This document shows, in pieces, positions 4,371 to 27,230 of a stretch of DNA of 64,000 nt (its first letter is position 1; each line of letters opens with the position of its first letter). This DNA comes from Hormiphora californensis. Lineage: Eukaryota > Animalia > Ctenophora. A program made the translations under genes and the position numbers. Where the stretch lies: positions 4,960,001 to 5,024,000 of the forward strand of contig CM035362.1 of the NCBI GenBank assembly GCA_020137815.1, written 5' to 3'. The notes under the pieces are model-generated. The model was not told the DNA's origin and made no database searches. It saw nothing but the letters and a program-made list of their open reading frames with translations.

Positions 4371-4402
<32 letters not shown>

Positions 4403-4439
4403 AGAGAGGAGAGAGAGAGAGAGAGAGAGAGAAGAGGAA

Positions 4440-4872
4440 TTAATAAGGTGTAGGTAAGAAGGGGGGGGGGGGGCGTATTTCAAGCCTTTCATCTTCAAAC
4501 CCAACACGAAAACACCGTTTGGGAAAAAATTTTTCAAAAAAAAAAAAACTAAAAAAAAAACCACAAAAAAAAAAAAAGGGAAAGACCGACAAAAATTCCC
4601 CCTCCAACCCCCCCCTTTTTTTTTGCCCCCTTTTCCTTTTAAAGGGAAAAGAAAAAAAAACCCTTTTTTGGGTTTTTTAATTTTTAAAAGAGCTTTTTAA
4701 AAAGGGCCCAAAAATTATAAGAAGGGGGGGAAAGGGGGGCAAAAGGGGTTTAATTTTTTTTTTAGAGGGGAAAAATTAATGGGGAAAAAAAAGGGTTTTT
4801 TGGGGTTGGGGGTGGGGGGAGGCGGGTTGGAATTTGAAAATAACTAAATCCGGGGTTTTTTTGGGGGGGTTT

Positions 4873-4908
<36 letters not shown>

Positions 4909-7900
4909 AATGCCCCTTGGGAGCTGAAAAAAAAAAAGCTAAAAACCCATCAAAAAACCCAAAAAAAATTTCCGCCCCAAAATCAGGGTACCGAGGCCCT
5001 TTTTAGGGCTCGCCTCCCCCCTTTTTATCCCCCCTTTTTTCTCCCTCGTCCCCTTTTTTCCTCTCTCTCATAGGCTATTTAGCACTATTCCGCCCCCCCT
5101 CACAGTATCGTGATTGAAGCTAGGGCAGACAACCCCTAAAGGGGTTACTGAGGGGGGGGGGGGGGGTGACAGATTAGAAAAGATAAGACAAAAAAAAAAA
5201 AAAAAGATTCTCTCTCTCTCTTTTCTCTTCTCTCTCTCTCCCAACCTTCTTTCTTTCTCTTTATTTCTCTTATTTTATAAAAGTTAATATAGTATACAAA
5301 AAACGATACTTTTCCGGGGAAAAATTGAAAATTTAAATATTTTTGAAGCCGGGGCGAGGATTAATTTCAACTTACCTTTGCCAAAAGGTAAAAATACGTG
5401 ATTTTTTCTGGCAACTACGGAACACCCAATAATAATATGGATATCACAGAAAAATTTTTTGTAAAAAAAAAAAAGCTTAATTCGGATTATGGGTCCCGCG
5501 GAAAAATTTTGGAAAAGTTGCTTCTAGAAAAACCCACATGTTATCTTCCCCCTTTTGTCCAGGGACTGCATGTCAATTTAAAAGGTTTTTTTGGGCGATC
5601 TTTAGTCGAGGAGGAACAAAATGTCATTTCGGGTTCATTAACGGGGTTGGGATATTTTTTCGGGGCATGGGAAAGAACACCACCCCCCCTGCTAAAGGAC
5701 TGCTCCACTAATTTGGGATTTTTTCTACCCACCTGGGGAAAAGGGGAGAATTAATTTAATTTTCCCCCCCCTCTGTATAGTACGTCAGTACGGGGAAATA
5801 TTTGGCATTAAGAACTCATGAATACCTTCTCTCCCCAAATTTTTAGATGTTAAAAACACGACAATTTTTTCCAACAACACTGAAAATTCGGGAGAGTCAA
5901 GAAAATATTGATTGCCCCCGGGGGTTTGGGTTTGTACGTAAAAACACAACAACAACGTGTAGCATAACTATGTTGACAAAAAATTTTTGGGGAAGTTCGG
6001 GGAAGAAAGGCCGTATTGAATTTGTTTATCGGCTCGTACATCCAATAGTCGGACCCCCCATGATCGTAAAAGCCGCGCTGAGTCCGAAAAAAAAATTGGG
6101 GGGAAGTGGGTTTGCAAGGGTCCATAGGGGCATTGAAAACTTGCATTTCCCCGCATTTAAAAATTGGCAATCCCCCGGGGAAAGGCACAGTTTGGTAAAG
6201 ACGAAAAAAAAAGAAACTTTAAAAGAAATAAACTTTGTGGTGTTTATTGTAACGTACAAAATGTGCAGGGTTATGTTACCTTTTTAAAAGTACCTGTAAC
6301 GTTTGCCGTGTCTTGGCACTTCAAGTGGACCCCTGAAAGATGGTTGTTTGGGAGACGCCAGGATTTGCTTCCCCCTCCTTTTTTTTAGAGAGGAAAAACC
6401 TTTTTTTTTGTTAAATTCGTCCACCGGGGGGTGATGTGATGGGCTCTGGATTAGGTTAAAAACCCGGGTTAAAATACCATTTTAGCAATCATAATTTCTA
6501 CATTGGGGGCCCGCCTCATTGTAGGCCCGATATTTCTTACTTAATATTACCCGCAACCTGGGTCAAATCAAGAACCTAAACTATAAAAAGACCGTGGGAA
6601 AAAACCCAACGGACCTAAATAACGTTTCTGATTGGTGTTACTTGTAAAAAATTTACCTTTTTGCTTTTTCTCCCGTTCTTTTCTGCGGTTTTCTTTTTTT
6701 TCAGTTTAATAGAAATTTTCTTCCCTCTTCCCCTCCTTTTTCGACTGTAAAAATTTTTTCTAGTTGTCCTGGAGTAAGAGGAATTTAAAAAAATAGAGAT
6801 GTGTTTTTTCAAATCGTTTTTGGGAATTGGACACCCCTAAAAATTCATTATTCCCGGGTGGGTAACATGGTGGGGAAAAAATACGGTCTATAAAAGTAGG
6901 GAAGAACACACTGGTCTTTTAGCTTTTATGAAATGTAGGGGTGAAAAAGACAAGAAAATGTGGTTTTTATAACTTTGGGAAAGGGGAAGAAAAGGACCCG
7001 TGTTCTTTTTTTCAGGAATTAAATACGGCTATTTTTTAATTTGGGAAAAGGCAAACTAAACTTAATGAGTTAAAAAATCCCCTTTAAACCAAAAGTAATT
7101 TTTTTTAATTTGGTTTTTCATTATCGGGCCATAAATGCGTAGTTGTGGAAATGAATGATGAAAAGGGAAAATTTTCTAAAATAAAAATACATTTAATCAA
7201 ATTCATTAAAAATTTTCGGCCGTGGTTGGAAAACGTTAATCAAAATCACTAAAAAAAGTCTGCCCCGGCGTTTTGTGGGGGAAAAGGGTAATGGAAAAGG
7301 GGAGAACATAAGCGACACGAAAACCGGGGCCCAAAGGGGCAGTACAGCGAAAAATGCACTTTTTCCCGTGCGTTTGCAAATTTGGCGTCTCTTTACGTTT
7401 TCAACGGAAATGCAAGAAAACACCGTGTCAAACAAAATCGGCAAAATCAAATCTCCTCAAACGTAAAATAAAATGCTAAGGCCGGGAAATTCTCCCCCTT
7501 TTTTTTTAAAATGAAGATTTGATTTTTAAGTTTCGGAAAATCGACCTTTAAAAAGTTTTTTTAGGGGGTTTTTTTCGGAACAAAAAATTGTATAAAAGCC
7601 CAAAAGTCTCAAAACGTTTTATATTTATCCACAAGAATCCTAAAGGAATTCTGCGGGATTTCCCAATTATCAGCTTTTCACAAATTGTCTCAAATTGTGC
7701 CAGGCAAAAAAATTGATGCCTTATCTTTTGGTTACTTAAATTATATTAATTTTTTGAAAATTTTTCCTTTTCTAGACTGATTCGACTGAGCAAAATTTTT
7801 TGTGGAAAATATTTCGTTAATTACTTCACTCAAAAAAATACTTCTCTTGAAACAAAAGCACCAAAAAGAATTTCACTTGCATAATTCAGAATACTTCTTT

Positions 7901-10900
7901 TAAAAAAATACTTCTTCAGAACTGTATTCAAAGCCTAAAATAACTTAATCGAACAAAAGGTAATGTCTTCAAATCGAACTTACTTAAATTTTTTGGAAAA
8001 AAACAAAAAAAGAATTAATTTTTCATTTAACACGCGTGGAAATTTTAATAAAATGGGTTAAAATTTCTTGCTAGTTTTGGGGAAAGACTCCGAGCGCAGC
8101 TGCAGCAAAAAAGAAAAACAGACAAACAGACGCACAAATTACAACGGAGAGTGCAGCACCCTCCCAGCAGCAAAAAGAGGGGCCCCCGGGGTTCGGGCGG
8201 AAGAAAATCAGGGTGCTGATAAATTGAGGAAAACAGAAAAACGCTTGGAACCCTCAAAAAAGACAAACCTGAAATAAAATCTGGAAGTTTAACTGCCCGT
8301 ACGAGTCATACTTTGAAATTTTTTTGGTTCGGTTTGTAATTCAGAGTGAAACATGGAGATTGGAGATTCAAGAATTTTTTTCCGACCTACACAGGCCCGT
8401 GTTCATAAAATAAAACAAAAAAAAAAGATAAGAAAAAAAAAATCACAGACGAAAACGACAGCCCAAAGCCCAGTTTTTAAATTTTTTTTTTTTAAAATCG
8501 ATTGGCTGAAAAACCCAGTACGGACTTAATAGACTGGATTGGTTGTTTTATTGGTCCGGGGGGTTGTGAAGATGGGGGAAAGGGGTCTGTTACGGGAAGA
8601 AAAAAAGAGAGGGAAGGGAGTGAGTTGCCCCTTTTGGGTTATTACGAAAGGGGATATTTGTCTAGGGGGGTTGGGATGTAAGGACAGAACAGTTAGATGA
8701 CAATATTTTGTTAAATTTGGAGATTTTATCCCTTTCTTTTTTTTTTTACAAACATTTCAAACCCGTGAGGGTTTTAAGTTCAGTACAGGGGAAGGGGAGG
8801 GGAAAGGACAAGGGGGGGTTTCAATGGGGGCAAAATGACAGGGGTAAATTTGGGGATAAGGGACCCCGGGGGGGACAAAAGGAAAGGGACAGGCCCCCCA
8901 CTACCCCCCTTCCCCCGGGGCATCCTTGCCTCCTAATCACCCCCTTCCCCAGGTCATCCGCCTCCTAACCAACCCCCCCTTCCCCAGTTTTCTGACCCCT
9001 AACTCAAGTCACCCCCTTTCCCCCCGGGCTCCCGCCCCTAACCCCCCCTTCCCTGGTTTCCTGACCCCTAAATTTCCCCCCCCCCCTAGGCATCTGCCTC
9101 CTAATCACCCCCTTCCTAGGTCATCCCCTCCACCAAAACCCCCCCCCCGGTCCCCTGCCTCCAAAACCCCCTTCCTAGGTTATCCGACCCCCCAATTACC
9201 ACCTCCCTTCCCTAGGTTATCCGATAACTACCCCCTTCCCTAGGATCCTGACCCCTAACTCACCCCTTCCCAGGGGTTACCCGACCCCCAATGGTTTAGG
9301 TTATCCTGACCCTAAATCACCCCCCTTCCCCAGGTTATCCGGGCCCCAAAACACCCCCCCCCCCGGTCATCCTGCCCCCTAACTCACCCCCCTTTTCCCA
9401 GGGCACCCCTTCCCGGGTTTTTCCTGCCTCCTGATAGTACCTGATCATGACGTCCCGGTGTTGATTGGATACAAGGTGACGGGGGGTTTCGGGGAGGCCC
9501 AAAGTAAACCGGGGGGAAGTGGAAGGGTTTACAGGGGGGGGGGGGGGGGGAAAAAGGGGGAAAAAGGAGGGTTTACAAAGAGGGGGACAAAAGGACAGGG
9601 TTTTCAGTCAGGGGGACAGAAAAATTTTACCGCTGCAGCATGATACCTACCACACGGATGCCGTTTTTTATATTTTAATCCCAAAGGTTTTTATTTTTAA
9701 ACATGAGTGGCCCCCTAGCCTTTTGGGAAAATGTAAATTTGAACCCCAAAAGTAGGGAAAACTTAAAAACCTTATGAGGTCAGGTTTGCAACATGTTTTT
9801 TGGGTCTTTTCTTTTTTCAGAGTGACCTTTTTACATAGAGATAAACCCCGGCATGATCACCCCCGGCCCCAGAGTCTGGGCCCAGACATCTCTTTCCCCT
9901 TGTTGGGTTTCCTAACAACTGGGTTTTGTTGGTCGTTACGAAAATAGGTATGGAAATAATTACCTTTTTAATTGGGGGTTTTAAGTTCGAAGAAAGAGAT
10001 TGGGGGTGACGTAGTTTGTTGACGGTGAGGAGGGTATTCGAGATGAACGATAATTTTTAATTACTCAGAATAGAATATTTTTATGGGGTCGCCTCCGTTC
10101 GCCCCTTTATCATGATGAGCTGGAAAGAAAAAATCTTGGGGAATTTCTTCATTTTTGGCCCGGGCTTGGTTTTTAAATGGGGAAAATTATAAAAAAAAAT
10201 GAAGGGATTTTTAATTTTGAAAAAATTTTTTTTGGGGCGACAAAAGATTTTAATTCCCCCAGTTTTTGAAGCTTTTTTAAATTGAAAAATGAAAGGGAAA
10301 ATCTTTGATTTGAAAAAATTTAAACAAAAAACTGCAAATGATTTAAAGGGATTTCAAATTGAAAAAAAGGAAGTTCTTCTGGGGCAATCTTCAAACAAAA
10401 TTGCAGTGATTGAAAAATTTTCAAAGAATTTTTTAAATGAAGCAAAAAACTGAACAAATTTTTTTGCGGTTTTACTTCTAGGGGAGAAAGTTTTTTAAAG
10501 AAGCAGTATTTTTCCCAATTTTATTAGCGAAGCAATGCCATTTGTTATTTTGAGTTTTTCAAAAATTTTAAAATACTTTACAAAAAAAACTTACTTATTT
10601 TTGAAGATTGAGACACGAGACTAGCCCCTCTTGTAGATTTTTTTCTCCTATCAAGATGGTTTTTAAAAAACTCAAAATCGCCAAAAAATTGCAAAAAATT
10701 AAAAAAAGGGGCAGAATTGACAAAAAAATATATTATAATTCACCGACACCAACCTTTCGGGAAAATTTAGATTAAACATAAAGTGGGGCGGGAGCTCCGA
10801 CTCGAACCTTCAATTTCCCGCCGGTATTTTTTAAATGTAATAAAGATCCTTAACCTTTCTAGAACGGGTCCGGGGTGAAGGTCGGAAAAATGTAGAAAAG

Positions 10901-12900
10901 AATGGGAAGAACGAAAGGGGAGAGCGAAAGAGAGACCGAGAGAGAGAGAGGAAGGGAAACGAGAGAGCCGGCGGAGCCAGAAAGGGGGCGGGGAGAGAGG
11001 GGGGGGGAAAAAGGGGAATCAAAACCCCAAGAGAAAAAAAGACCGAGAGGAGGGGAACAAAAAAGAAAAGGGAAGAGAAGAAAAACGAAAGGGAGAAAAG
11101 AAAGAACAAAACATAGCGAAAGAAGAAAAAAAAAAAACCCCGGAAACCCCCGCCACCCCAAAAAAAATGAAAGGAAACGGATCAAATTGTTTTCCAACTC
11201 AATAAATGAATGGGGAGTCTTGTCCACCCGGGTTTGTCCCGTTTGTAAAGGTCATCGGTAACTTTAGTATCTGTAAGAAACAAAAGGGCCCGTTAAGTAG
11301 TAACTAGGGTAACTAGGGGGTTAACTGGGAGAAGTAGTAACTAGTAGGGCAGGTCGGTAGAATTTGACAGATTAGGGCAGGGCAATTAGGGCAGCTCGAA
11401 TTTAGGCAGCTCTGAATTAGGGCAGTTGTAAATAACTATTTTTAGTAATACTTTGAGGTATGGGATTGAAAAAAAGTAGGGGTGGTATTAAGGCTGGTGG
11501 ACCACACTGAATGGATGGTGGGTTCCCTGAGACTGTTTCGGGGTGGTTATCTGGGAAAGACTTGAAATGAAAAAAAGATTCCCCCTTTTTTCCTTCTCTT
11601 TTTTTCTCTTTTCCTCTTTCCTCTTTCCCCCCTTCTTCTCCCTCTCCTTCCCCGTTTCCTTGCTTTCTTTTTCTTCTCTCGGTCCATCACGCACACTCCC
11701 GCTCCTAAAATTTTGGCGGGGGGTTTAAACCCCCCCCCATCGTTGGATCTCCCGGGGGCCGGGGTAAAGGGTGGCTTCCCCTGGGGTTTTTGTCTGACTT
11801 GGGTTAAATAAGGGAAAAAATTTTTGGGGAGTTAAAACTCGGGTTGGGGGGTAAGCCCCCCCAAACAGGAAAAGAAACCCATTTTTTTGGGGCGGGCCCG
11901 GAAAAGGGGCCCGGGAAAAGAAGGAAACAAACTTTTACTTGGTAGGGGAACAGGAAAAGGGTTAAAAGGGGAAAAAAAATTTAAAAAAAAGGGGGGGTAA
12001 ATTCTTTTAGTTTCCCGGGCTTTTTCGGGTTAAAAAACCATTTGAAAGGGGAAGGGAAATTTGGCGGGTAAGAAAACAAATTTGGGGGGGGGGGGGCAAA
12101 CTGTCAATTTGGAAAAGGGGAAGCCCCAAACGGGTTTAAAATTTTTGGAAACCCCTTTTCATCCCCGTGGGGGAACCGTCCGGTAAACATGTCAAACCTT
12201 TTCCCTTTTTTTTCAAAACCCCCAGGTTTTAAAGGCCCCGATTTAGCTTTTAAGTGGAAAAAAATTTGCGTTTCATTTCAGGACTTTTTCTGGTTTCCCC
12301 CCTTTCTTTTTAAAAATCCGGGCCTGATTTTCCCCCCAAAGCTCCGATTTCCGGGTGGATACCCCTGGCCTTTTTAGGGGTTTTCCATTCTTTTGGTTGG
12401 GAAAATCCCCTTTCCGTATTTTTTCTTTCTGATCCTCTCCCATTCGTCGAATGGCTTTTTTTGGGCGCAAAAGAACGGCCTTTTCTAGGTTTTTGTTGAG
12501 CCAGGCAGGTCAGTCAGGGGTCCCCGTTTAATGTTTGGAATTTAGAAGATTTGGTTTTCCCTTTTTCAATTCCCTTTTTGTAGTCTTTTCCTTCCCCCTT
12601 TTGGATCGTTTGAAATTTTTGAACCCCGTGTGGGGGGGACTTGGGGCCCGGGTTGGAAATTTATGTCCCTTTTTTCCCCCCAAAGGCCCAAAACCGTTAG
12701 TTCCCAGTTTTTGAAACAAGCCCCCCTTTTAAACCACCCCCTTTTGGGTCTTGGGGGTTTAAAAGGGGGTTTTTTAAGGAAAAACGGGTAAGTATTCCCC
12801 CCTTTTGTTTTCTTTTTTTTTTTTAGGGGGTTTTTTCCTGCCTTCGGGGTGGACCAGGGGGGCTGATCAGCCAAGAGCTCCGATCACGATGGGGATGACC
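4440..12900. other. Homopolymer-inflated low-fidelity sequence (probable poor long-read consensus)
   Basis: Pervasive long A/T/G/C runs. Where a cleaner paralogue exists (11560-11800 vs 18110-18360; 12860-12930 vs 18710-18790) the differences include many homopolymer expansions. Confidence 0.75.
8920..9430. repeat. Degenerate C-rich tandem repeat (about 30-35 bp unit)
   Basis: Recurring CCCCTTCCYAGGTYATCCGMCYCCTAAYCAC-like motif; lies just downstream of a minus-strand CAG|GTACTA donor-like site near 9438. Confidence 0.7.
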
Positions 12901-15900
12901 GTGGCCTTTTTAAGATCCCAAATTCTGTGAGCTCCCTCCGTAGTTCTTGGTATTCTCGATCTTCTCCATCTCCCTGTCCGAGACTGACCTGCCCTTTTGG
13001 TACAGGGGACACGATCAGAAGGCTTCCTTTTTAGTTTTTGTCTAGAAGGACCACGTCAGGTTTACATGCCTCGATGGGGTTTTCCGTCTGAATGTGGGAA
13101 ATCCCAAGAGGATCTTGCACGTTCCATTCTCGAGCACTTTCTCTGCATAGTGGCGCCACCAACTTTGATTCGGTAGGAAACCCGTGGTCCTTGCATATTC
13201 CCCAGTGCAGGGAGAGTACTCGTCGTTTCGGAGTTTAAGTCTCCGTTGGCAAGTTTCGTGCATCCGTTTAGGATGTTGTTCCACGGATCGTGGGGTTGGT
13301 TACAGTCCGGGGGCCCAAACTCTCAGTACTTCATTCTCTTTCTGTATGGCAGCTCTCAACAGTTCGTGCGAATGGCTTGATCCTGGGCAGCAAAGCCCAT
13401 CGGCTTCGGGTATCTGTGAGGCTCTCTTTGTTGAGCCAGGCCCAGGTCGCGTCAGGTCGCACCCCCTTCTTCAAGTTGCTTCAGGAATCTTCCATGTAAG
13501 ACTTTGTGTTTCCATTTTTTATAATTTTCCGTCTGTAGTTTTTCCCTTTCGGGGCCCTTCTGCGTTCTGGAGGTCCAGTTAGCATATCTTCAGATTGCAT
13601 CGCGTGGGGAGGCCACGGATTTTGGGGTCCGTGGAATTGGGAAGAATGTCCTAGTCCTGTCTCTTCCTTCACAATGACATCTTAAATCCGTTTGGAGACC
13701 CCTTCCTCCCATTTTTTCCTGCAAAACATACAGCCGGGTCAATGGTCACTGTTGTCTTGATGACTCCTCTTCTCAGGATTTCCTAGTCATCATGTCTAGT
13801 CCACTGGCTTCGGAAGTGGACCAGTCCAGTATTCCGGCACCGTAACGGATCACAGGTATTGCCCATGTGTTGATTGCTGTGATGAGGTTCTTGCCTTGCA
13901 GGCTCGAGGACAGTAGTTTTCTTGACTCTTCGGGTGTTTTCGGCTTTGACCTTAGCTTCTTTTCTTGATGAAGAATACGGTCAACCTCCAGGATGCCGAG
14001 GTTTACTTATAGCCTCCATCTTCCACCTCGGGTATTCTGTCTCACTTGGCAGGTTATTCCCTGCATCCGATTTCTGACTCCGTCCACAATGTCTAGAGCT
14101 CCGCACTTGGATAGACCAAAGGACCTGTTGATGTCAGTGCTAAACTTCTCAGTGACTGCTAAGAGCTGCTGGAGGTCCTCTTTCGAGCTGGCCCATACAG
14201 CTTAAGATCGTCCATGTATAGGCGGTTTGGGTGGTTAATACTAATATTGGATCTGGAGTTACTGGGTCAGATAGGTGTAGCCTTTTCCTTGGGCAGTAGG
14301 AGCATGGACAGGGGATCAGGGCTTAATAAAGTGAAATAGGGGAGACGGAGGTCCCCTTGGAAGAGGCCTCTCTTGATGTGTTTTTTACCAAAGGTCTGAC
14401 CCAGTTTGGCCCATTTTTGACAATACACTGCTGGAATGATGACTCGAATAGTCGGATTATCTGAGGGTTTATCCCGAAACATCTCCATTGACTTAAGGAT
14501 CCAGGAGTGGGGGTTTCGAGTCGTATGCCTTCTGGTAGTCTAGGAAAGCCATATACAAGGAAGACTTTGAGCGTTTGCAATGACGTAGGATAAGTTGTAA
14601 TTGCTAGTTGTTCTTCATCCCGACTCTTTTTGCGGCACCCCTTGCTCTTCCGGAAAGGCCCTTTTAAACATCGAGGTGCTGGTAGATGTCTTCTGATAAT
14701 ATTCCTGTATACAGCTTCCAGAGGTTCGGAAGGCAGGTTTGGGTTTTAAAAGTTCCCCGGGTTTGACATTCCCTTTTTGGGGTCTTTAATCAGGAGGGAA
14801 GGTCCTGCCTTCAGTCATCCATGCCGGGACTTGACTCGTATAATGAGACTTTCGTTGAGTAGCTCAGCTATCCGACCATGGAGGCAAGTCGTGTGTTTAA
14901 TCCAGAAGGCGTGGGAGACCATCTATACCTGGGGTTGACCAGTTGGTCATCCTTCCTTCACCCGAGCTGCAACTCTTTCCGTGGTGATCTGAAACTCTTC
15001 CTGTTGGCTGGACTGTTTCAAGTTCTCCTGGACTCCGTCTAACCATTCTGCTTCAGTGTTATGACCAGCCTCGTTTTCCCAGATATTTTTCCAGAAGTTA
15101 AGCGTCCTGGTCTGGTCTTCGGGAGTACAATCGAGTGGCGTGGGGTCCGATCCACGTTTCTCCAGTTTCCGGTAAAAGTTTCGTTGGTTGTTCTGGAACA
15201 GGTTTGTCAACGAATGTCTGCTGCTTCTTCTTGTATCTCTTAATCTTTCCGGCCTTCGCTAGCAGTCTCTGCTTCACTTCTTCTATAACTTGTTTTATAG
15301 CCTTCTTGGGCAGCAGCGGGTATCTTCTATAGATAATATCTATAGTTTGGAACTTGTGGGGTGGCACCTCTGCTCATTTCGGTCAGCCTGGAGAGGTTCT
15401 GAGCGAAGCTTGGCGACACTCTCTTCGAGTCGTCGCAGCCACATAGGTTGTTTATTCCTTCTGGGGGTGCTGTTGGTGGGTTTCGCTTGGTGCCCTTAAC
15501 GCCCATCTGTTCTCGGACCACATGGGCTACGGCCATCAGTAGCGTGTTCAGTGTGGTAAGGTCTGGAGTTTCAAAGGACTTGATTACCGGGCTGAGTCGG
15601 TCCAATTGCCACTCGTAGCTTCCCCAGGGGACATGCCTCAAGTCGGTGACTTTGATGGAGCTTGGTTCCTCGAGTAGTTTCTTGAACTGCTCCACGATTT
15701 CAGGGTCGGTGATGGCCCTTCCTCTTCCTCTTCCTCTTCCACTGGGTTTGTGGGGGGTTCAATGGTTTCTGGGGGTGGGTTGTCCTCTACCACAGCCTGT
15801 CGTGCCGATTCAGTTGCTTCACGGTCGGCTACTGCCGCTGTTCTGATTCCATCAGCTTCTGTGGTGAAAGGAGTCCCGACTGAGTTATAGATCTCAGTTG

Positions 15901-16423
15901 GGATCTAAGCTGGTCATCAGTCTTGGAAGGGTAGGTTGTCTTTGCCCACCTTTCCTCCACTCGGTTCCATACTCCTCTTTTGTCAGGTTGTGAGTACGAG
16001 TGGATGAACACGAGCGTAATGTTCATTTCTGTGGTCCATTTCGTTCGTGGCGCTCTAGTTGGGGGGTGGTGGTGGGGGATCGGCGGTGTCCCCATTTGCC
16101 GAGGTACTCGGACCCGCAGTGTTATCATTCACCGTGAGATCCACTTCCGGGAGTATATTTAGGCCAGATGCTGCTAGCCCTGCTAGCATTCGCTGATCAG
16201 CCATCTCCTGCGGTGTTACCATGTGTCCAGATTTCTCTATTGATCTGAACTGGCTTGAGAGTTTGGCACCTGTTAATGGGTCGTGTCCCTTGTCTTCCCA
16301 TAGGCGTTCGAGCCTCTTCCAGGATCCGGATGTGCCTGGGTTGCTGCTGTAGTAGCAGTACACCAAGTCTAGGTTCTCTTGCTTAGACCAGACCTTCCTT
16401 GGTTTACGGGTGTTAGTACTCAT
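12780..16423 (-). pseudogene. Copy 1 ORF (2x Myb-like, RT, zinc knuckle region, RLE), heavily frameshifted
   Basis: Starts MSTNTRKPRKVWSKQENLDLVYCYY; fragments HIKRGLFQGD, NNQRNFYRKLEK, WWRHYAEKVLEN match copy 2. Frameshifts may be consensus errors rather than real decay. Confidence 0.85.
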
Positions 16424-16717
16424 GTCGAATAAGATGAGTAAGTTTTGGGGGTGAGTTTCAAACCAAATCACTGTGTATACATAGTCATCGGTTTGTTAGA
16501 AGAAGAGCCGGGTTTGGGGGTCTTAACACTGCCACCGGTGCACAGCGGGTAACGGAATCCCACCGCCACATTTGGTCCGTTAGTGGATGGTTTACCCGGC
16601 CATCCTTGCAGCTTTTCAGCACGAACCGACCACCTTTCAGCGTACGGGTGTGTATCTATATGTTCTATATGGTGGATCTGTAACAGGGACATATATGTGA
16701 AGCATTATGATCTAACT

Positions 16718-17743
16718 GGAACGGGGTAAACTATCCTCCCAGGAACAGGGTAAACTATCCTCTCAGGAACGGGGCAACTATCCTCTGTGGAGCGGGGTAA
16801 ACTATCTCTCAGGTGCGGGGTAAGGGGTATACTATCCTCTCCGGAACGGGGCAACTATCCTCTGTGGAGCGGGGTAAACCTATCCTCTCAGGCGCGGGGT
16901 AAGGGGGTATACTATTCTCTCTGGATCGGGCAACTATCCTCTCCGGAAACGGGGCAACTATCCTCTGTGGAGCGGGGTAAACTATCCTCTCAGGTGCGGG
17001 GTAAGGGGTATACTATCCTCTCCGGAACGGGGCAACTATCCTCTGTGGAGCGGGGTAACTATCCTCTCAGTGTGGGGTAAGGGGTATACTATCCTCTCCG
17101 GAACGGGCAACTATCCTCTGTGGAGCGGGGTACAACTATCCTCCTCAGGCGCGGGGTAAGGGGTATACTATCCCTCTCCGGAACGGGGCAACTATCCTCT
17201 GTGGAGCGGGGTAAACTATCCTCTCAGGCGCGGGGTAAGGGGGTATACTATTCTCTCCGGAACGGGGACAACTATCCTCTGTGGAGCGGGGTAAACTATC
17301 CTCTCAGGCGCGGGGTAGGGGGTATACTATCCTCTCCGGACGGGCAACTATCCCTCTGTGGAGATCGGGGTAAAACTATCCTCTCAGGTGTGGGGGTAAG
17401 GGGTATACTATCCTCTCCGGAACGGGGCAGACTATCCTCTGTGGAGCGGGGTAAACTATCCTCTCAGGCGCGGGGTAAGGGGTATACTATCCTCTCCGGA
17501 ACGGGGCAACTATCCTCTGTGGAGCGGGGTAAACTATCCTCCTCAGGTGTGGGGTAAGGGGTGTACTATCCTCCTCCGGAACGGGGCAACTATCCTCTGT
17601 GGAGCGGGGTAAACTATCCTCTCAGGCGCGGGGTAAGGGTATACTATCCTCTCTGGATCGGGGCAACTATCCTCTGTGGAGCGGGGTAAACTATCCTCTC
17701 AGGCGCGGGGTAAGGGGTATACTATTCTCTCTGGATCGGGGTA
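16718..17743. repeat. G-rich higher-order tandem array upstream of the copy 1 leader (about 78-bp trimer of about 23/24/31-bp monomers)
   Basis: GGAACGGGGCAACTATCCTCTGT / GGAGCGGGGTAAACTATCCTCTCA / GGCGCGGGGTAAGGGGTATACTATCCTCTCC cycling. Confidence 0.95.
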
Positions 17744-18601
17744 CCCTATTAAAGGGAGGTTTAGGGGGTTAGCAGATTAGTAACAGATTGGTTAGTGGGT
17801 TGTAGATAAAGGGGCATTGGAGGTCCACAGGTGGCTGGAAGGTGCCTGTTCCACGGTAACCCTAAGCCGGGGAAGGCGGGGTAGGAACGTAATAGTTGGC
17901 GATGATACACTGTGGGCCGCCTAGCCAAGAAGATCTTTTTGTGTTTTGTATTTTATGATTTTTTTCCGTATTTTGATACACAGCCACGCTTAGCCACGGC
18001 AACACGGACCTGAAAATCGATTCAAGGGGAAAAAGGGGATGGGGGAAAGGTACTCCGGTGTGACCTTTCCGGGGGGAAACCGAATAGGAGGTGGGTGGCA
18101 GGGGACAAACCCCCCCCCCTCTCTCTCTCTCCTCTCTCCCCTCTCTCTCTTCTCCTATTTGCTCTCTGCTCTCCTTCTATCCTCCTATCTTCTTCCTCTC
18201 TCCTCTGGTCCATACAGCCACTCCACATGGGGCCGTAGGTCCCATGTGGGACAGGGTTTTAATCCCGAGCCCGGATCTGTTGGGCTGAGGGCCGGAGGGC
18301 CTGGGATAAGGGGTAGGGGAGCATGTCCCAAGGGGTAGGTTGACTGCCCTATGGTTAGGGAAGAAAAATAAAAAAGGGGGTAAAGCTCATGGTGGCGGAG
18401 CAAAGACCCCCTAACTATCTGGGGGAGGGCGCCTGGCCTGGAACGGAATTAAGAAGGGGTAACCTTAAAACGGGAACAAAGGGTCTGGAACAAAACGTCT
18501 GGGGAAGGGAGGATGTCAGGCCCGTTAAGAGCAAGGAGGAACGGGTGAAAGAACGGTAAAAACTAATACAAATATACATCTAGGTGGTTACAGGAGGCTG
18601 A

Positions 18602-21600
18602 TTAACTATCGAGGAACTTCCGGAGCGTGTTCATCGAGTTGAAGAGGGATGACTTTTGGAGCTGTGAGGGGGTATAATTGGCGAGTTATAGCCATCAGGT
18701 AATTCTCCAGTCGGGGCTAACTCCGCCAAGGGCTCCAATCACGATGGGAATGAACCGTGGCCTTTTTAAGTTCCCAGATTCGTGTGACCTCTCTCCTCAG
18801 TTCCTGGTACTTCTCGATCTTTTCCAGCTCTCTGTCAGAGACTAATCGGTCCTTGGACGGCGACAATCGATTGAGTAGTGCCTCCCTCTTTTGCTTGTCT
18901 AGGAGGACCAGGTCGGGTTTGCACGCCTCAATGGGGTTGTCCGTCTGGATGTGGAAATCCCAGAGGATCTTGTAATTCTCATTCTCGAGAACTTTCTCTG
19001 CATAGTGGCTCCACCACTTTGATTCAGCAGGAAATCCACAGTCCTTGCACAATTCCCCAGTGTAGGGCAGCAGCTACTCGGTCGTGTCTGTGCTTATAGT
19101 CACCGTTGGCCAGCTTCTGACATCCGTTTAGGATGTGTTCGACTGACTCGTTATGCTGGTTGCATATGCGACACTTCTCGGACTCTCCAGGTTGTTTCTC
19201 GATAGCAGCTGTCAGCCAGTTTGTGCGAGTGGCTTGCTCCTGGGCAGCAAATACATCAGCTTCGGTGTATCTGCTGAGGGCTTCTCTTGTTGAGCCAGGC
19301 CCAGGTCGCATCAGGGTCGCATCCCCCTTCTTCAAGTTGCTTCAGGAAACGTCCATTGCAGTGATTACTCTTCCAGTTCTCTATCAAGCTGCGCCTCCAG
19401 TCTTCTGTCAGGGTTTCGCGCCTCCTCTGGGAGTTCCGTTAGCATTCCTTCTCTTCCCATTGCTGTTTTGAGTGCAATTATCTTGGGATCAGTTGAGTTG
19501 CTGAAGAACGTCGCTAGTCCTGTTCCTTCCCCTTACTATAACGCTTCAATCCTCTGGAGGCCTCTTCCTCCCTTCTTTCTGCTCACATATAGACGATCAA
19601 CGTCGCTGTTGTATTTCAAGAACCCTCCTTCTTAGGATTTTCCGAGTAATTAGGTCCAGTCCCTTGGCCTCTGTGGTGGTCCAATCCAGTATTCCGGCAC
19701 CGTATCGAATCACCGGTATTGCCCCACGTGTTGATTGCAACGACGAGGGTTTTTACCAGACAGGTTGGAAGACAGTAGTTTCTTAAGTCTTCTGGTTGTA
19801 TTCGGTCTTAACCTTGGCTTTTCATTTCCTTGATGTAGAATCGAGTCAGCCTCCAGGATACCAAGGTATTTATATCCACCATCTTCCACTTCCGGGATTG
19901 TCTTTCCACTCGGTACGATCTATTCCCTGCATTCGACTTCTGACTCCGTCCACGATGTCTAGTGCTCCACATTTGGATATACCAAAGGACATGTTAATGT
20001 CTGTGCTAAACTTCTCGGTGACTGCCAACAGCTGCTGTAGGCCCTCTTTCGAGCTAGCGTATAGTTTAAGATCGTCCATATAGAGGCGGTGGTTAATATC
20101 AATATCTGTGGTGGGTTCTTCTGGATCAGAAATGGTGTAGCCTCTTCCTTGGGCAGCTAGGAGCAAGGATAGGGGGATCAGTCCTATAATAAAATGTATC
20201 GGGGAGACAGAGTCTCCTTGGAAGAGGCCTCTTTTAATGTGGACTTTGCCTAAGGTGGAGCTGGATTGGACTAAATTAACTATACACTGCTGGAACGATG
20301 CCTCGAACAGTCGTATGATCTGTGGGTTTATTTTCAGCATTTCCATTGATTTCAGAATCCAGGAGTGTGGGATCGAATCGTACGCCTTCTGGTAATCAAT
20401 GAAGGACATATACAGGGAGGATTTGGTCCGTTTACAATGACGAAGTATAAGTTTGTCGATTGCTAACTGTTTCTTTACATCCTCTGCTCTTCCTGCGGCA
20501 ACCCTTTTGTTCTTCAGGGAAGAGTCCGTTAACGTCGAGGTGTAAGTAGATGTCCTCCGACAGTATTCCTGTATATAGCTTCCAGAGGTTTGGGAGGCAG
20601 GTTATGGGTCTGAAGTTCCCCGGATCGCTCATACCTTTCTTGGGGTCTTTCATCAGCAGGTATGTTCTGCCTTCCGTCATCCATCCTGGGACCTGGCCTG
20701 TAGTAAGGCTTTCATTGAGCAGCTCAGCTATCCGTCCATGGAGACATGCTGTGTGCTTGATCCAGAAGGCATGCAGCCCATCTATACCTGGGGACGACCA
20801 GTTGGTCATTCCCTTCACACGGGTGGACACTCTTTCCGTGGTGATCTGGAAGTCCTCTTGCTGGTTGACCGCCTCAAAGTTCTCTTGGATTTCATCTAAC
20901 CACTCTGCTTCAGTGTTGTGGCCGACGTCATTCTCCCATATGTCTTTCCAGAAGTTAAGTGTCCTCGTCTGGTCCTCTGGTGTGGATTCGTGCGGTATGG
21001 GGTCTGATCCTCGTTTCTCCAACTTTCTGTAGAAGTTGCGCTGGTTGTTCTGGAACAGGTTATTGTCAGCGAAGGTCTGCTGCTTCTTCTTGTATCGTCT
21101 TATCTTTCCGGCCTTCGCTAGCAATCTCTGTTTGACCTCCTCTATTACTTGCTTATAGCCTTTCTTGGGCAGGAGTGGGTATCTTCTATAGATATTATCT
21201 ATAGTTTGGAACTTCTGGGTGGCTCCTCTGCTCATTTCGGTCAGCCTGGATAGGTCTGAGCGAAGTTTGGCGACACTCTCCTCGAGTCGTCGCAGCCACA
21301 TTGGTTGTTTGTTCCTTCCGGGGGAGTTACTGGTGGTTTCACTTGGTGGCTTTATACCCATTTGTTCCCGGACAACATGGGCTACCACCATCAGGAGGGT
21401 GTTCAGTGTGGTAAGGTCTGGGACTTCAAACGATCTGATGACCGGACTAAGTCGGTCGATTACCACACGTAGTTTTCCCCATGGGACCTGTCTCAGGTCA
21501 GTGACCTTGATGAGGCTCGGTTCATCAAGGAGTTTTTTGAACAGCTCTCTGGTTTCAGGGTTAGGCGCTGGTTCTTCGTTTTCCACTGGGTTTGTAGGTG

Positions 21601-22270
21601 CAACGGGTTCTGGAGGTGGATTGTCCTCTGGCTCAGCCTGCCGAGCCGCGTTGTCGTTCTCACGTTCAGATGTGGCCGCTTCTCTGATTTCCATGAGCCT
21701 TTGTGGTGAAAGGAGTCCCGTATGAGTTATAGAATTCATTTGGGATCTGAGCTGGGTATCAGTCTTGGCAGGGTAGGTTGTCTTTGACCATCTCTCCTCC
21801 ACTCGATTCCACACTCCTCTTATTTCTGGCTGTGAGTACCAGTGGATAAACACGAGCGTAGTGTTCATTTCTGTGGTCCATTTCGTCCGTGGCGCTCTAG
21901 TAGGGGGTGGTGGTGGGGGTGGTGGTGGGGTTGGGGCATCGGTGGTGTCCCCATTCGTTGTTGTACTGGGACCAGCGGTGTTACTATTAACCGTGAGGTC
22001 CACTACCGGGAGTACGTTTAGGCCAGTTGCTAGGGCTTGCATATCTGTCATCTCCGTCGGAGTTACCATGTGTTCAGATTTCTCTATAGATCTGAACTGC
22101 CCAGCGAGTTTTTTACCTGGCAGTGGGTCATATCCTTTATCTTCCCACAGGCGTTCTAGCCTCTTCCAGGATCCGGATGTGCCTGGGTTACTGCGGTAGT
22201 AGCAGTATACCAAGTCTAGGTTCTCTTGCTTAGACCAGACCTTCCTTGGTTTTCGGGTGTTTGTACTCAT
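18602..22270 (-). CDS. R4-clade polyprotein, about 1200 aa with several frameshifts: 2x Myb-like, RT, CCHC zinc knuckle, restriction-like endonuclease
   Basis: FRPITCLPNLWKLYTGIL, IDYQKAYDSIPHSW, RGLFQGDSVSP, HRLYMDDLKLYA (RT); CRICNQHNESVEHILNGC (CCHC); YKHRHDRVA, KPDLVLLD, EKIEKYQEL (RLE); ends QKSSLFNSMNTLRKFLDS-stop. Confidence 0.93.
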
Positions 22271-22313
22271 GTCGTATAAGATGAGTAAGTTTTGGGGGTG
22301 AGTTTCAAACCAA

Positions 22314-22911
22314 TCATACTACTTACTAAGCAAATTGTGTAACGGTGGTCACCTAGCAACTACACTTGCACGTGCAATTATTAGAGGGACCTGGAGAGTG
22401 GAGACCTCTCTCCCAGTTGCAGTTGGGAACCAAGGGGAAATTCAATTCTGCACGTGCATTCTTTTACTTCTGTCCTGATGTCTTGCTCTTCCACCCAAAG
22501 TGCTATTCGGCAACGTTTATCTAGGTCCAGGAGAACTGCTGCTGTCAGGGAGCAGGCTAGAGAATATGACAGATTACGCCAACGTGTTCAAGCGAGCCAA
22601 TCAACGACTACGGATAGCTTTACCCAAAGTCGCCCAAGCGTGATTACTCCAGTCGAATACAGAAATCTCCAAATCGGCTACATAGCGGCCAAGTTTTCAC
22701 GTGATGAATTTCTGGAACAGCACTGCACCTCCATGACATTGATCTCTTAAATTCGCAACTCGACATTGTCAGGAAGCCCAGAGCGTACACCAACATGAGT
22801 AGGGAGAAAGTGAGAGATAGGCTAGGAACGGATGGTGCAGGTGATGTCAGCGTTCCCTAATCCAGCTATCATTTCCCCGAAATTCGCCCGTAGGGCGAAC
22901 GGGCCTACTAG
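22314..22911 (+). mobile_element. Non-autonomous Helitron (about 600 bp)
   Basis: 5'-TC, 3'-CTAG, subterminal hairpin TTCGCCC-GTA-GGGCGAA, inserted between A and T with no TSD; the empty site is visible in retroelement copy 1 (CCAAATCACTG near 16465). Confidence 0.93.
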
Positions 22912-23151
22912 TCACTGTATATTCATAGTCATCGGTTTGTTGAAAGAAGAGCCGGGTTTGGGGGTCTTAACACTGACACCGGTGAGCAGCGGTAACGGAA
23001 TCCCACCGCCACATTTGGTCCGTTAGTAGATGGTTTGCCCGTCCATCCTTGCAGCTTTTCAGCACGAACCGACACTTTCAGCGTACGGGTGTGTATCTAT
23101 ATAATATGTTGGATCTGGGACAGGGGCCAGTGTGAAGCATTATGATCAACG

Positions 23152-24030
23152 GGAACGGGGTAAACTATCCTCTCCGGAACGGGGCAACTATCATCTGTGG
23201 AGCGGGGTGAACTATCCTCTCTGGAACGGGGTAAACTATCCTCTCAGGAACGGGGTATGGGGTAGACTATCCTCTCTGGGACGGGGCAACTATCCTCTGT
23301 GAAGCGGGGTAAACTATCCTCTCTGGAACGGGGTAAACTATCCTCTCAGGAACGGGGTATGGGGTAGACTATCCTCTCTGGGACGGGGCAACTATCCTCT
23401 GTGAAGCGGGGTAAACTATCCTCTCTGGGACGGGGCAACTATCCTCTGTGAAGCGGGGTAACTATCCTCTCAGGAACGGGGTATGGGGTAGACTATCCTC
23501 TCTGGGACGGGGCAACTATCCTCTGTGAAGCGGGGTAAACTATCCTCTCTGGCATGGGGTAAACTATCTTCTCAGGAACGGGGTATGGGGTAGACTATCC
23601 TCTCTGGGACGGGGCAACTATCCTCTGTGAAGCGGGGTAAACTATCCTCTCTGGAACGGTGTAAACTATCCTCTCAGGAACGGGGTATGGGGTAGACTAT
23701 CCTCTCTGGGACGGGGCAACTATCCTCTGTGAAGCGGGGTAACTATCCTCTCAGGAACGGGGTATGGGGTAGACTATCCTCTCTGGGACGGGGCAACTAT
23801 CCTCTGTGAAGCGGGGTAAACTATCCTCTCTGGAACGGGGTATGGGGTAGACTATCCTCTCTGGGACGGGGCAACTATCCTCTGTGAAGCGGGGTAAACT
23901 ATCCTCTCCGGAGCGGTGTAAACTATCCTCTCCGGAATGGGGTAACTATCCTCTCCGGGACGGGGCTACTATCCTCTGACGGGTAAACTATCTTTGGGAC
24001 GGGTAGGAATTACGGGCAACTATCTCTGTG
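23152..24030. repeat. G-rich higher-order tandem array upstream of the copy 2 leader
   Basis: Same core (CGGGGYAAACTATCCTCT) as 16718-17743 but with diagnostic variants GGGACGGGGC, GAAGCGGGG, GGGGTATGGGGTAGAC; decays after about 23950. Confidence 0.95.
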
Positions 24031-24149
24031 ACATCAACTCTCATCTGACGAGCCGCCATATCTCTCTCCTCTCAGCCCTTTATACTATATCCAAAGCCTG
24101 CCTGACCTATCCCAACAAACCCCACGCCAATTCAACAGCAACTGAGACG

Positions 24150-24880
24150 ACCCGCTCAGGTAGCGGTCACTGACAAGAGACAATGCCCAGTCTCGCCTGT
24201 CGGGGCAGACCCTCCGAACAATCTAGAGACCATGTTAAGCCCGTCTGATGACCATGGCCGTGATAGCATGCAACGCTCCGAACTTGAGCAGCCCCAAGCA
24301 GAAAGTGAAGATTTCTGTCTTCTTCTGCTCCCGAGTTTTGTTTCCCATCGAAGGAGGGAATTACCCGTCCGATCCTTTCCATCTGGCAACCCCATTGGTA
24401 GATGACCGGTGTGAAGGGAGGGGAATTAGGAGCCCTATCCTAAGATGGGGAATTAGGAATAGGTCAAGTGACCTAACATCTCCCTCATCCCTGGCCCCTG
24501 TACGTGCCCGAATTTCAATATGTGCGCCCACACAAGTGCATTAGATTCTAACTTTTATCCCAATGCCCTAATGGAATTTTCTATTAATAAGCCCCTTTTA
24601 GGGAAAATCTCATCAACCAGTGCTTTGGTGTGGGTTTCGATAATGTTTCTCAAGATGAGTTTTTTTCTCCTCTCTCTCCACTCTCCACGTCTCTCTCTAT
24701 CGCTACCAACTTACAAACTAAATAAATAAAATTAATCGACGTCCATGATCACAACACAAACAACTCCCGACCCATTTGTCCTAAATAAAATAAAATAATA
24801 AAATATAGTTGCCCCAAACAAATGACAAACCTAAACACCCGTAACATGTAGAATCTGCTGCCGCTCTACAGTTCAGAGGA
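24150..24880 (-). mobile_element. Possible decayed CR1/L2-type LINE 5' end / ORF1 relic
   Basis: Minus-strand fragment reads R-R-K-K-L-I-L-R-N-I-I-E, reminiscent of the RRxNLII RRM entry motif of LINE ORF1; broken by stops. Confidence 0.3.
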
Positions 24881-25279
24881 ATTATGAAGTGGGTTCCTGG
24901 GACAGCTTTACCTTCCTCCTTCAGTTTCAACAACAAGCTTTTTCCGTTCATTAGTCCGTTTCTTCTACTGTTCTATCTATAGAGCTATAAAAGACTTTGC
25001 CAAACTTTGTCGTTCCCTTTCAGCAGGGAATTTCGTTCTTCGACGGATTGAAATTTGAGCTTTCTCACTCTCAGCACTACTTTCACAGGTCTTTGCCGAG
25101 AGGACTGCTTTCCCAAGCGCTTCGGCGGATTGCAGGCTTTCGGATCCCTGTTTTTTTTTCAAGCTCACCCAAAAAAAGAGACTTATTGAGTTTCAAGCTT
25201 CTCACCATTTACATTGTCTTTCAACTCTTCCAATCCATGGATGATTATGTTACAACCCACTGTCCTCCGATTCTGCCAA

Positions 25280-27230
25280 AACGCTGCGCATGGACGGCGC
25301 TCGTGGTGTCCGGTGTCCGCGGACACCCAGACCAAAAAAACGGAGAGAGAAAAAGAAGAAAAAATGGAAAAAACAAAAGAATTTGAAAAAAATCGGTGAA
25401 AACTGCGAAATTTTGATTTGCGCGCAGCCTGGTTGTCCGGATCTCTGGTCTGCCGGACACACAGGTTCCTGCGTCGCACCGTAACGCACGGCAGAGCATA
25501 ACGGTTCTTCCGCGCGCACACATGCATTTGCATGACTGCAGGGGTGTCCTGTTCACCCAGAACTTGTGTGCGCGCGGATGAAGTTATTTTTGTTGTGATC
25601 ATACACTTTCATTCATTCATCTTTTTTTCCATTTTTCACAAAAGGCTTCATAAATGCTTAAAATCGTTTAAAAAACTCCTCCAAATGTCCCAATTTTCGG
25701 GGGGTCTTCGCCCTTACAACCCCCACCGGGGCTTGCAAGCCCTGGACCCTGCCCTGCTGGGGCTCTGCCCCCTACACACCCCCCCGCCCCGGGGCTGCGC
25801 CCCCTGGACCCTGCTTGTGGGTGTAAGCGTAAATACTCACTCGGTTCTTTCACACAATCACATTTTTGGACATTTTTTGGCCATAACTCAGCCATTTTTT
25901 GACCCAATTTTGCAAAATCTTGTCGCATTGGGAAGAGGACAGTGAGACTTTAAAATGAGCCTAGAAATAATCGGCGCAAAATGTCGCGTTATTGCGTAAA
26001 TGCGCGTTTTCGCCATAGGCGCGCCGCGCATTTTGCGCCGGATTTTTCATTTTCTAAAGCTCATTGGAAAGCTCTAATGTCCTTCTTTCGCAATGAGCCC
26101 CAAGAGTTTGCAACTTGGTCAAGACATGGTGAGTTATGGCCACAAACGTCAAAAAAGGTAAGAACCGAGTGGTTTTTACCGCTTATACCGCTTGTTGGGG
26201 GGTTTTCATTCACCCCCCACAAAGGGTCCCCCTGACTCTCTCTTCCTCCCCCTGTCCCCTTACAGCCCCATCACTATTCTTCTTGCCAACTTCCCAGCAT
26301 TCCTTCCCCTGCGGCTGGCGCAGCGTGTGATAAGGCAACGCTGTCACTCGTTCAAACCCTACAGCAATCCGACACCGGTGTCTCAGATAATAAACGCACA
26401 CCACGTCCGGCACATGGTGACCTGGCAAAGTGTTACAACACCGAAGTGTTCAACCCTAACTCTAAAACCAAACAATACTCTGCAGCGGCGGAATTTTTTC
26501 AAAGTTCCCGAGCGCGAGCGTAAAAAAACGGTGCGCGCGCATGCGCGGCGTTGATTATGGTTTTGCGCGTGTCAATTCGCGTCGCAAAATCACTGACAAA
26601 GAATTTTACATTTTTATTTTCATATGTTGGCCGCCAACCCCCCCCCCCCCAAAAAAAATTTTCAAAAAAAAATCTTGGTTTGCAAGCAAAAAAATCTTTG
26701 TTGCATACAACCAGGGACGGCGCTCGTGGGTGTCCGGTCCGCGACAACCAACCAAAAAGACGGATAGTCGAAAAGAAGAAAAATGAAAAAAACAAAAAAT
26801 TTGAAAAAAATGGTGAAATCTGTCGAAAATTTTGATTGCGCGCAGGAGCGTGTGTCCGGACTCTGCCGAACACCCCAGGGTTCACTGCGCGCACCTGTAA
26901 CGCACGGCAGGAGATAAAGAGGGTTATTCCGCACCGCACAGTGCATTTGACTAGGACCAGGTGTGTCCGGTCACCCAGAAGTTGTGTGAGGCGCGGATTG
27001 ATTTTTTCTTGTGATCAGAAAACTTTCATCTTTTTTTTCTATTTTTCACAAAAGGAGTTCAGAAATGCTAAAATCGTTTAAAAAGCCTCAAAATGTCCGA
27101 CATTTTCGGGGGTCGCCCTCCCCCCTCAACCCCCACGGTGCTTCGGCAAGCCCCTGGACCCTGCTGCGGGGCTCTGCCCCCCCTACACCCCCCGCGGGCT
27201 GCGCCCCTGGACCCTGCTTGTGGGGGGTTT
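25280..27230. repeat. Diverged direct duplication (about 25280-25830 and 26715-27230) flanking an imperfect inverted repeat (about 25875-25970 / 26050-26143); probable DNA-transposon remnant
   Basis: Shared GGACGGCGCTCGTGG..., CTGTAACGCACGGCAG and GGGCTCTGCCCC...GGGCTGCGCCCCTGGACCCTGCTTGTGGG blocks; TGGCCATAACTCA mirrors TGAGTTATGGCCA. Confidence 0.7.

What the first reader, a model, noticed from the sequence alone, without database searches (positions are those of the whole stretch)
11290..24030. Head-to-tail R4-clade retrotransposons, each with its own G-rich 5' repeat array: possible self-targeting or array-building system
Seen: two clearly diverged elements (many third-position differences) lie in the same orientation. 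Each has the layout array, conserved leader, ORF, long 3' region. The 3' end of copy 2 abuts the array of copy 1 abruptly at about 17744, with no poly(A)/(TAA)n tail or TSD visible. The arrays share a core but are homogenised to different variants, so they evolve with their elements; the edge units of array 2 (near 23170 and 23905-23960) carry array-1-type CTCTCCGGA. Established: RLE elements are usually sequence-specific (R4: 28S rDNA; Dong: TAA repeats); mouse L1 uses 5' monomer promoters; HeT-A/TART form head-to-tail chains. Inference: the element carries the repeat it targets (or a multimeric promoter), so each insertion supplies a new landing site and chains grow.
Basis: partly seen in the sequence, partly recalled or inferred. 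Interest (0 to 1): 0.8.

Follow-up and report, generated by a model that had tools for sequence, protein, structure and literature searches.

The report
GA-repeat retrotransposon with internal minisatellite
Two neighbouring copies of a jumping gene, likely from a comb jelly, each carry a G-rich repeat array ahead of their gene and meet at a plain GA repeat, so they likely stack head-to-tail by inserting into that GA repeat rather than into the array, a known pattern with a likely new target.

Summary
A clean relative (L002) ends ...GTGGACC, then (GA)12, then unrelated DNA. The same end motif and a GA tract lie at 18207 and 11681. Copy 2 therefore ends at about 18207, not 17744. None of 3 readable 3' ends touches the array. 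The 374 bp between (17744-18117) is multi-copy, is joined to array 1 in another run, and starts right at the GA tract with an HDV-like ribozyme fold (the only strict-descriptor hit in the window; descriptor set after seeing it; L3 non-canonical). It is likely the 5' head of copy 1. Best reading: a Dong-like element, likely (GA)n-targeting, with a 5'-UTR minisatellite; chains would form by repeated insertion into one GA tract, as MoTeR does in telomere repeats. Against: copy 2 has no such head, no contig bridges the GA tract, and one contig type joins the head's last 88 bp to another array. Also missed: a 598-bp Helitron-like insert in leader 2 and a garbled duplicate at 11681-12858. The scan's notes held no look-alike.

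The parts
11590..11680 (-). Garbled (GA)n-like tract after a 3' end
   Evidence: Follows the end motif at 11681-11685; noisy region
11681..12857 (-). Garbled 3' UTR (11681-12070) plus garbled duplicate of the last part of the ORF (12150-12700): third truncated copy or assembly mis-join
   Evidence: 150-bp windows map to L002 3233-2718 and 2586-1877 with z 3-12; one window (12650-12799) does not map
12858..16423 (-). Copy 1 ORF, ending about 100 nt short of its stop; many 1-2 bp indels
   Evidence: 88.8% to L002; 83 of 85 gaps are 1-2 bp; tblastn with P0001-3
16424..16717 (-). Copy 1 conserved leader
   Evidence: 233/263 identical to leader 2
16718..17743 (.). Array 1: 23/24/31-bp monomers in a ~78-bp higher-order unit; likely 5'-UTR minisatellite of copy 1
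17744..18117 (-). Segment S: likely 5' head of copy 1
   Evidence: Multi-copy in 4 of 4 runs up to about 18045; joined to the array in an X6 contig; no clear homology beyond the other ends
17983..18117 (-). Candidate HDV-like ribozyme: P1 18117-18111/18077-18071, P2 18099-18093/17989-17983, P3-L3 18092-18079, J4/2 CTAA
   Evidence: Only strict-descriptor hit on both strands of 64 kb; 0 of 3000 shuffles; 9-11 sites with looser descriptors; no Rfam ribozyme hit
18118..18206 (-). (GA)n tract shared by the 3' end of copy 2 and the 5' head of copy 1; likely target
18207..18601 (-). Copy 2 3' UTR (~400 nt), ending GGACC
   Evidence: Aligns to L001 and L002 3' UTRs
18602..22270 (-). Copy 2 ORF: two Myb-like repeats, RT, CCHC knuckle, PD-(D/E)xK endonuclease; 24 single-base gaps against L002
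22271..23150 (-). Copy 2 leader, interrupted by the insert
22314..22911 (+). 598-bp non-autonomous Helitron-like insert (TC...CTAG, terminal hairpin, between A and T)
   Evidence: Second copy 58587-59215 at 87%; insert-free joint in X1, X3 and, shifted, X2; Helitron label is recalled from these end features
23151..24030 (.). Array 2, with decayed monomers at its distal edge
24031..24699 (.). Unexplained DNA distal to array 2, ending in a short TC tract (24666-24699)
   Evidence: No clear homology to S, no ribozyme hit; such a tract occurs in 115 of 968 random 700-bp stretches

Best explanation
This is a multi-copy R4/Dong-like retrotransposon that ends in a GA repeat, likely inserts into (GA)n microsatellites, and likely carries the G-rich array as a minisatellite inside its own 5' untranslated region. 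Inferred full-length layout, about 5.7 kb: (GA)n | head with candidate HDV-like ribozyme (374 bp) | array (~1 kb) | conserved leader (~290 bp) | 1212-1216-aa ORF | 3' UTR (~410 nt) | (GA)n. Shown: ORF anatomy, 3' end position, GA tract after the 3' end, head joined to the array, intact relatives. Inferred: the endonuclease nicks (GA)n and primes reverse transcription there; the head ribozyme would release the RNA from a read-through transcript at the GA/G boundary, as shown for R4 and Dong; each insertion leaves GA repeats on both sides, so a later copy landing in the same tract gives a same-orientation head-to-tail chain. The array would travel as part of the RNA and be homogenised per lineage by slippage or unequal exchange. 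Copy 2 would have lost or replaced its head.
For: 3 of 3 readable 3' ends (L002, 18207, garbled 11681) are followed by a GA tract; the fourth, L001, ends 3 nt short. L002 continues into unrelated DNA after (GA)12. 0 of 3 have array monomers beyond. S is covered at depths like the ORF in 4 of 4 runs and bridged to the array. The single strict HDV-like hit starts at the base next to the GA tract, where R4 and Dong ribozymes cut (PMC3774820, passages); the minimum-energy fold forms the same P2. Array-bin to ORF-end-bin depth ratio 12.6, 14.2, 13.5, 18.4, about one array per element; rough, since the tool says depth is no copy number. The family is sister to a group holding the TAA-flanked L003-L005 (SH-aLRT 94, quick tree). 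Precedents: 5' VNTRs in FoTeR/MoTeR (PMC12857005), MoTeR arrays in telomere repeats (PMC7367193), tandem Utopia (PMC4640811).
Against: Copy 2 has no S-like head (41 and 8 of 200 shuffles score as well) and no ribozyme hit in 24000-24720; its nearest TC tract is 640 bp away and weak (12% by chance). The GA tract 5' of copy 1 is the same tract as the one 3' of copy 2, so there is no independent 5' GA flank. No contig bridges the GA tract. The ribozyme descriptor was set after I saw the sequence; looser versions give 9-11 sites; L3 (TCCTATTC) lacks the usual C and G, whose loss goes with inactivity in one R2 (PMC3774820); bases 18080-18117 have no contig cover; the descriptor also found nothing in the 5' ends of L003 and L004, so it has no positive control. 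A contig joins S up to 17831 to a further array in X2 and X6, with a matching loose end in X3. Only three 3' ends were read, two from a noisy assembly, and GA repeats are common here (13 plus-strand and 4 minus-strand tracts in 64 kb).
Confidence: 0.62

Rival explanations
1. One reading: S is a 3' extension beyond an internal GA tract (in the copy-2 lineage at least), and such elements insert into the G-rich array after GGGGTA, so each copy's 5' array is a landing site.
For: S-to-array junction falls after GGGGTA in the window, in an X6 contig and, in another monomer context, in an X2 joint 17717-17750. The joint 17831-to-array looks like an 88-bp 5'-truncated insertion flanked by array. Copy 2 is flanked by near-identical 11-mers (GGATCGGGGTA / GGAACGGGGTA; sequence). 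Copy 2 lacks an S head and array 2 has a decayed distal edge.
Against: L002 and the 11681 end have no S after GA. The HDV-like fold reads from the GA side, as a 5' end would. A fixed S-array boundary and flanking 11-mers arise anyway if the array is internal. The 17831 joint is one contig per run and fits a local duplication or a deletion between tandem copies. Array depth shows no large free satellite (rough).
Confidence: 0.15
2. The GA tract is only a tail made at the 3' end, with no target choice; the tandem is a chance, recombinational or assembly product, and the array is an ordinary 5'-UTR minisatellite.
For: No independent 5' GA flank; no contig bridges the tandem junction; the window is error-rich and holds a likely mis-join at 12858; unreviewed scan notes describe frequent local duplication in this genome.
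Against: Without targeting, copy 2 would have to end exactly at the first base of copy 1's predicted ribozyme. The copies are 78.5% identical, so not alleles or a simple duplication. Relatives are flanked by their microsatellite on both sides (L003, L004), and R4/Dong elements are described as rDNA- or microsatellite-specific (PMC7998251).
Confidence: 0.2

Closest known systems
Dong / R4 clade (PMC7998251, PMC3812793, PMC3774820; passages)
   Same: Single ORF with N-terminal Myb/SANT-like domain, RT, CCHC, restriction-like endonuclease; simple-repeat flank; ribozyme at the 5' end (here a candidate).
   Different: GA instead of TAA or rDNA; two Myb-like repeats (internal match E 4e-9); 5' UTR of about 1.7 kb with a 1-kb array, against about 150-300 bp and no array in L003 and L004.
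MoTeR and FoTeR (PMC7367193, PMC12857005; passages)
   Same: Restriction-like endonuclease elements in a simple repeat; multi-element arrays with the target repeat between copies; VNTRs concentrated 5' of the ORF and varying by lineage.
   Different: Fungal, telomere target, N-terminal zinc fingers, many short VNTR types rather than one higher-order array.
Kibi (PMC3812793; passage)
   Same: TC/GA microsatellite target.
   Different: APE-type endonuclease, fish; unrelated protein layout.
Mouse L1 monomer promoter; HeT-A/TART chains; Zepp self-insertion (recalled; Zepp-like centromeric arrays seen in PMC8287924 passages)
   Same: 5' tandem monomers, or head-to-tail chains.
   Different: Different clades; promoter activity and self-insertion are untested or unsupported here.

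Membership tests
R4/Dong clade | Single long ORF with RT | tested here: met
   RVT_1 E 1e-19; intact 1212-1216-aa relatives P0001-3 at 79-83%; L001 open for 1203 aa
R4/Dong clade | C-terminal CCHC knuckle, RHD and PD-(D/E)xK endonuclease | tested here: met
   Motifs at 1028 and 1113 of P0003; profile aligns to the R2 endonuclease, E 0.00065 for that stretch
R4/Dong clade | N-terminal Myb/SANT-like domain without zinc fingers | tested here: inconclusive
   Model of repeat 1, pLDDT 87; many Myb/SANT chains among the top 50 but Z only 4.2-6.2 (Sap1 Z 6.2, rmsd 4.2, 74 aligned; TRF1 Z 4.5, rmsd 2.0, 52 aligned); Foldseek no E<=0.001; Atlas Myb_Rap1 0.86, a lead. No zinc-finger pattern before residue 502
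R4/Dong clade | Phylogenetic placement with named R4, Dong, Rex6 | tested here: inconclusive
   No named references were available; quick tree of 24 rows groups the family with TAA-flanked L003-L005 (94); those are 37-39% identical over nearly the full length
R4/Dong clade | Site-specific insertion in rDNA or TAA repeats | tested here: not met
   No rRNA gene in the window; 3 of 3 ends are in GA, none in TAA. Works like Dong with another repeat; not a Dong by target
R4/Dong clade | HDV-like ribozyme at the 5' end | tested here: inconclusive
   Candidate 18117-17983; no Rfam support; activity not testable
   0 of 3 readable 3' ends
   None elsewhere in the window; depth ratio 13-18 fits one array per element; no genome held
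Multimeric 5' promoter (L1-monomer type) | Monomers drive transcription | not testable with these tools
   No run was kept as raw reads; only DNA contigs were laid

The most novel reading that the evidence does not exclude
The monomer is a functional site, not drift: it differs about 10% between the two lineages while third codon positions differ 31%. The element's own twin Myb domains bind it, so the 1-kb array acts as a self-recognition platform that steers new copies to, or into, existing copies (the 17831-to-array joint being such an insertion) or regulates the element's own RNA.
Probability: 0.12. Interest if true: 0.72.

Novelty: new variant of a known kind. Interest (0 to 1): 0.36.

Why it matters
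If (GA)n targeting holds, it adds a new target to the R4/Dong group, with intact ORFs and twin Myb-like domains that allow a test of how target choice shifts. It also shows the MoTeR-type layout (simple-repeat target, chains, 5' VNTR) in an animal lineage. It is not a new kind of system, and the self-targeting idea that made the finding striking is not supported.

Tried and rejected
No genome held for the window, so copies could not be counted. Array, leader and 3'-end patterns found nothing in metagenome contigs, genome contigs or viral contigs; 4 viral hits to an 18-nt end motif had no blastn or tblastn match; no relatives in viral contigs. Rfam: nothing at gathering score in the window; only weak unrelated hits around heads and leaders. 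No tRNA. Leader and S do not fold better than shuffles (z 1.19 and -0.02). A first, stricter HDV descriptor found nothing anywhere. A hammerhead-like CTGATGA...GAAA at about 24245 was not pursued: by eye stem II does not close onto GAAA. The monomer resembles the 28S stretch upstream of the R2 site printed in PMC3774820 (18 of 21 columns), but 3 of 6318 window 24-mers score as well, so several such matches are expected across rDNA, and the match is antisense to the element: rejected as unproven. S homology to 11150-11580, 24030-25300 and 8880-9420 was not found (14 tests, best 8 of 200 shuffles). A spliced leader at the 5' end was not tested. The careful tree did not finish; the quick tree is quoted.

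Full report
Observation. The window holds two minus-strand non-LTR elements, 78.5% identical over 3692 columns, with differences concentrated at third codon positions (58/578, 43/576, 176/574). Each has a G-rich array 5' of a conserved leader (233/263 identical). The arrays have 39 and 35 monomers of mostly 23, 24 and 31 bp; best-monomer identity is 0.96 and 0.95 within and 0.91 and 0.89 between arrays, and array-1-type CTCTCCGG occurs in array 2 only at its edges. The assembly is error-rich: homopolymer runs are several times denser from 9000 to 12900 than in the element bodies, and the copies have 85 and 24 gaps against the clean contig L002, nearly all of 1-2 bp, whereas L001 and L002 differ by one in-frame gap. 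Most frameshifts are therefore likely errors. Unreviewed notes on other pieces of this genome call it a comb jelly; I did not test that.

Protein. Intact relatives of 1212-1216 aa exist at 79-83% identity (3 of 12 hits). They carry RT, a CCHC knuckle with RHD and a PD-(D/E)xK motif, and an internally duplicated N-terminal domain. A model of the first repeat is confident (pLDDT 87) and resembles Myb/SANT domains only at middling Z, 4.2-6.2. A quick tree of 24 rows places the family next to a group that holds L003-L005, of which L003 and L004 lie in TAA repeats on both sides. That fits the R4/Dong description in PMC7998251 (passages). No named reference sequences were in the tree.

Where the element ends. 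L001 and L002 give a clean 3' UTR of about 410 nt. L002 ends GTGGACC, then (GA)12, then 52 nt of unrelated DNA; L001's contig stops 3 nt before that point. The UTR aligns to the window down to 18207, where a TC/GA tract (18118-18206) begins, and, garbled, to 11681, again followed by a TC-rich tract. So 3 of 3 readable ends are in GA, and none has an array monomer beyond it. Copy 1's 'long 3' region' is a garbled UTR plus a duplicate of the end of the ORF; clean sequence resumes at 12858, which suggests a mis-join or a third truncated copy.

The segment between, S (17744-18117). Contigs of 4 of 4 DNA runs (at most 4 samples, 2 studies; the best holder may not be independent) cover S up to about 18045 at depths like the ORF, and one X6 contig spans 17714-17786, so S and the array are joined outside this assembly. 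S shows no clear homology to the DNA beyond the other ends. Read on the element's strand, S begins at the GA tract with a G run that can form P1 of an HDV-like fold, with P2 (6 of 7 pairs), P3, P1.1, a long P4 and J4/2 CTAA. This is the only hit of a strict descriptor on both strands of the window, with 0 of 3000 shuffles hitting. Limits: I set the descriptor after seeing the sequence, an earlier stricter one missed it, looser ones give 9-11 sites, L3 lacks the conserved C and G, its bases have no contig cover, and Rfam gave no support. R4 and Dong ribozymes cut at the precise 5' end (PMC3774820, passages and section 16). I take S as the likely 5' head of copy 1, which puts the array inside the 5' UTR. 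The array-to-ORF depth ratio of 13-18 fits about one array per element, but contig depth is a rough guide only.

Mechanism. Shown: anatomy, end position, GA tract, head-array link. Inferred: insertion into (GA)n by target-primed reverse transcription, RNA release by the head ribozyme, and chain formation when a second copy lands in the GA tract left by the first. The order of insertion cannot be told. MoTeR forms such arrays in telomere repeats (PMC7367193, passages), MoTeR and FoTeR carry lineage-specific VNTRs 5' of the ORF (PMC12857005, passages), Utopia is sometimes tandem (PMC4640811, passages), and TC microsatellites are a known target for Kibi (PMC3812793, passages).

Against this reading. 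Copy 2 has no S-like head; array 2 decays into 640 bp of unexplained DNA and a weak TC tract that chance gives 115 of 968 times. The GA tract is shared, so it is not an independent 5' flank, and no contig bridges it. A contig in X2 and X6, with a matching loose end in X3, joins S up to 17831 to a further array, and X2 shows S joined to the array in another monomer context. Of the loose ends only 24 were shown in each call (1664 and 216 hidden), so a lack of other flanks at 17744 is weak evidence.

Novelty. I found no GA-specific R4/Dong element and no ctenophore R4/Dong report in nine searches. Repbase and Kojima and Fujiwara 2004 were not seen, two further papers were not held, and no supplements were read, so absence from print is not established. 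PMC5035012, PMC10499050 and PMC8287924 were read as passages only. The scan's own notes held no look-alike by DNA, protein or words. Verdict: a real family, a new variant of a known kind; interest 0.36. The self-recognition reading stays open at about 0.12.

Noticed in passing
window 22314-22911 and 58587-59215: High-copy 598-bp Helitron-like element (TC...CTAG, terminal hairpin); insert-free form of the leader seen in contigs.
   Followed up: partly
window 1926-3330: Fold-back element: 591-bp arms, 99% complementary, 223 bp apart, sitting inside a 42-bp minisatellite (1601-1930, 3325-3807).
   Followed up: partly
window 8880-9430: Another, C-rich ~33-bp degenerate array in garbled sequence, unrelated to the element arrays by the tests run.
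   Followed up: no
window 11290-11580: Short TTAGGGCAG-type repeats beyond the garbled GA tract; starts with a G run on the element strand and could be a garbled head of a further copy, but no significant match to S.
   Followed up: partly
window 25289-25821 and 26712-27224: Direct repeat pair, 78.8% identical.
   Followed up: no
window 16540-16560; L004:640-660: The leader shares a 14-nt stretch (13 identical) with the 5' UTR of the distant TAA-flanked element L004; possible conserved RNA motif.
   Followed up: partly
arrays 16718-17743 and 23151-24030: Monomer resembles the 28S stretch upstream of the R2 site (18 of 21 columns, antisense to the element); not beyond chance for an rDNA-wide search. 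Each array has 52 runs of three or more G.
   Followed up: yes
P0008: A database protein fuses a Src-like kinase model with a piece of this element's ORF, probably a gene model spanning an insertion.
   Followed up: no
window 4400-12900: Long stretch of homopolymer-inflated, low-quality sequence; any finding there needs read support.
   Followed up: partly
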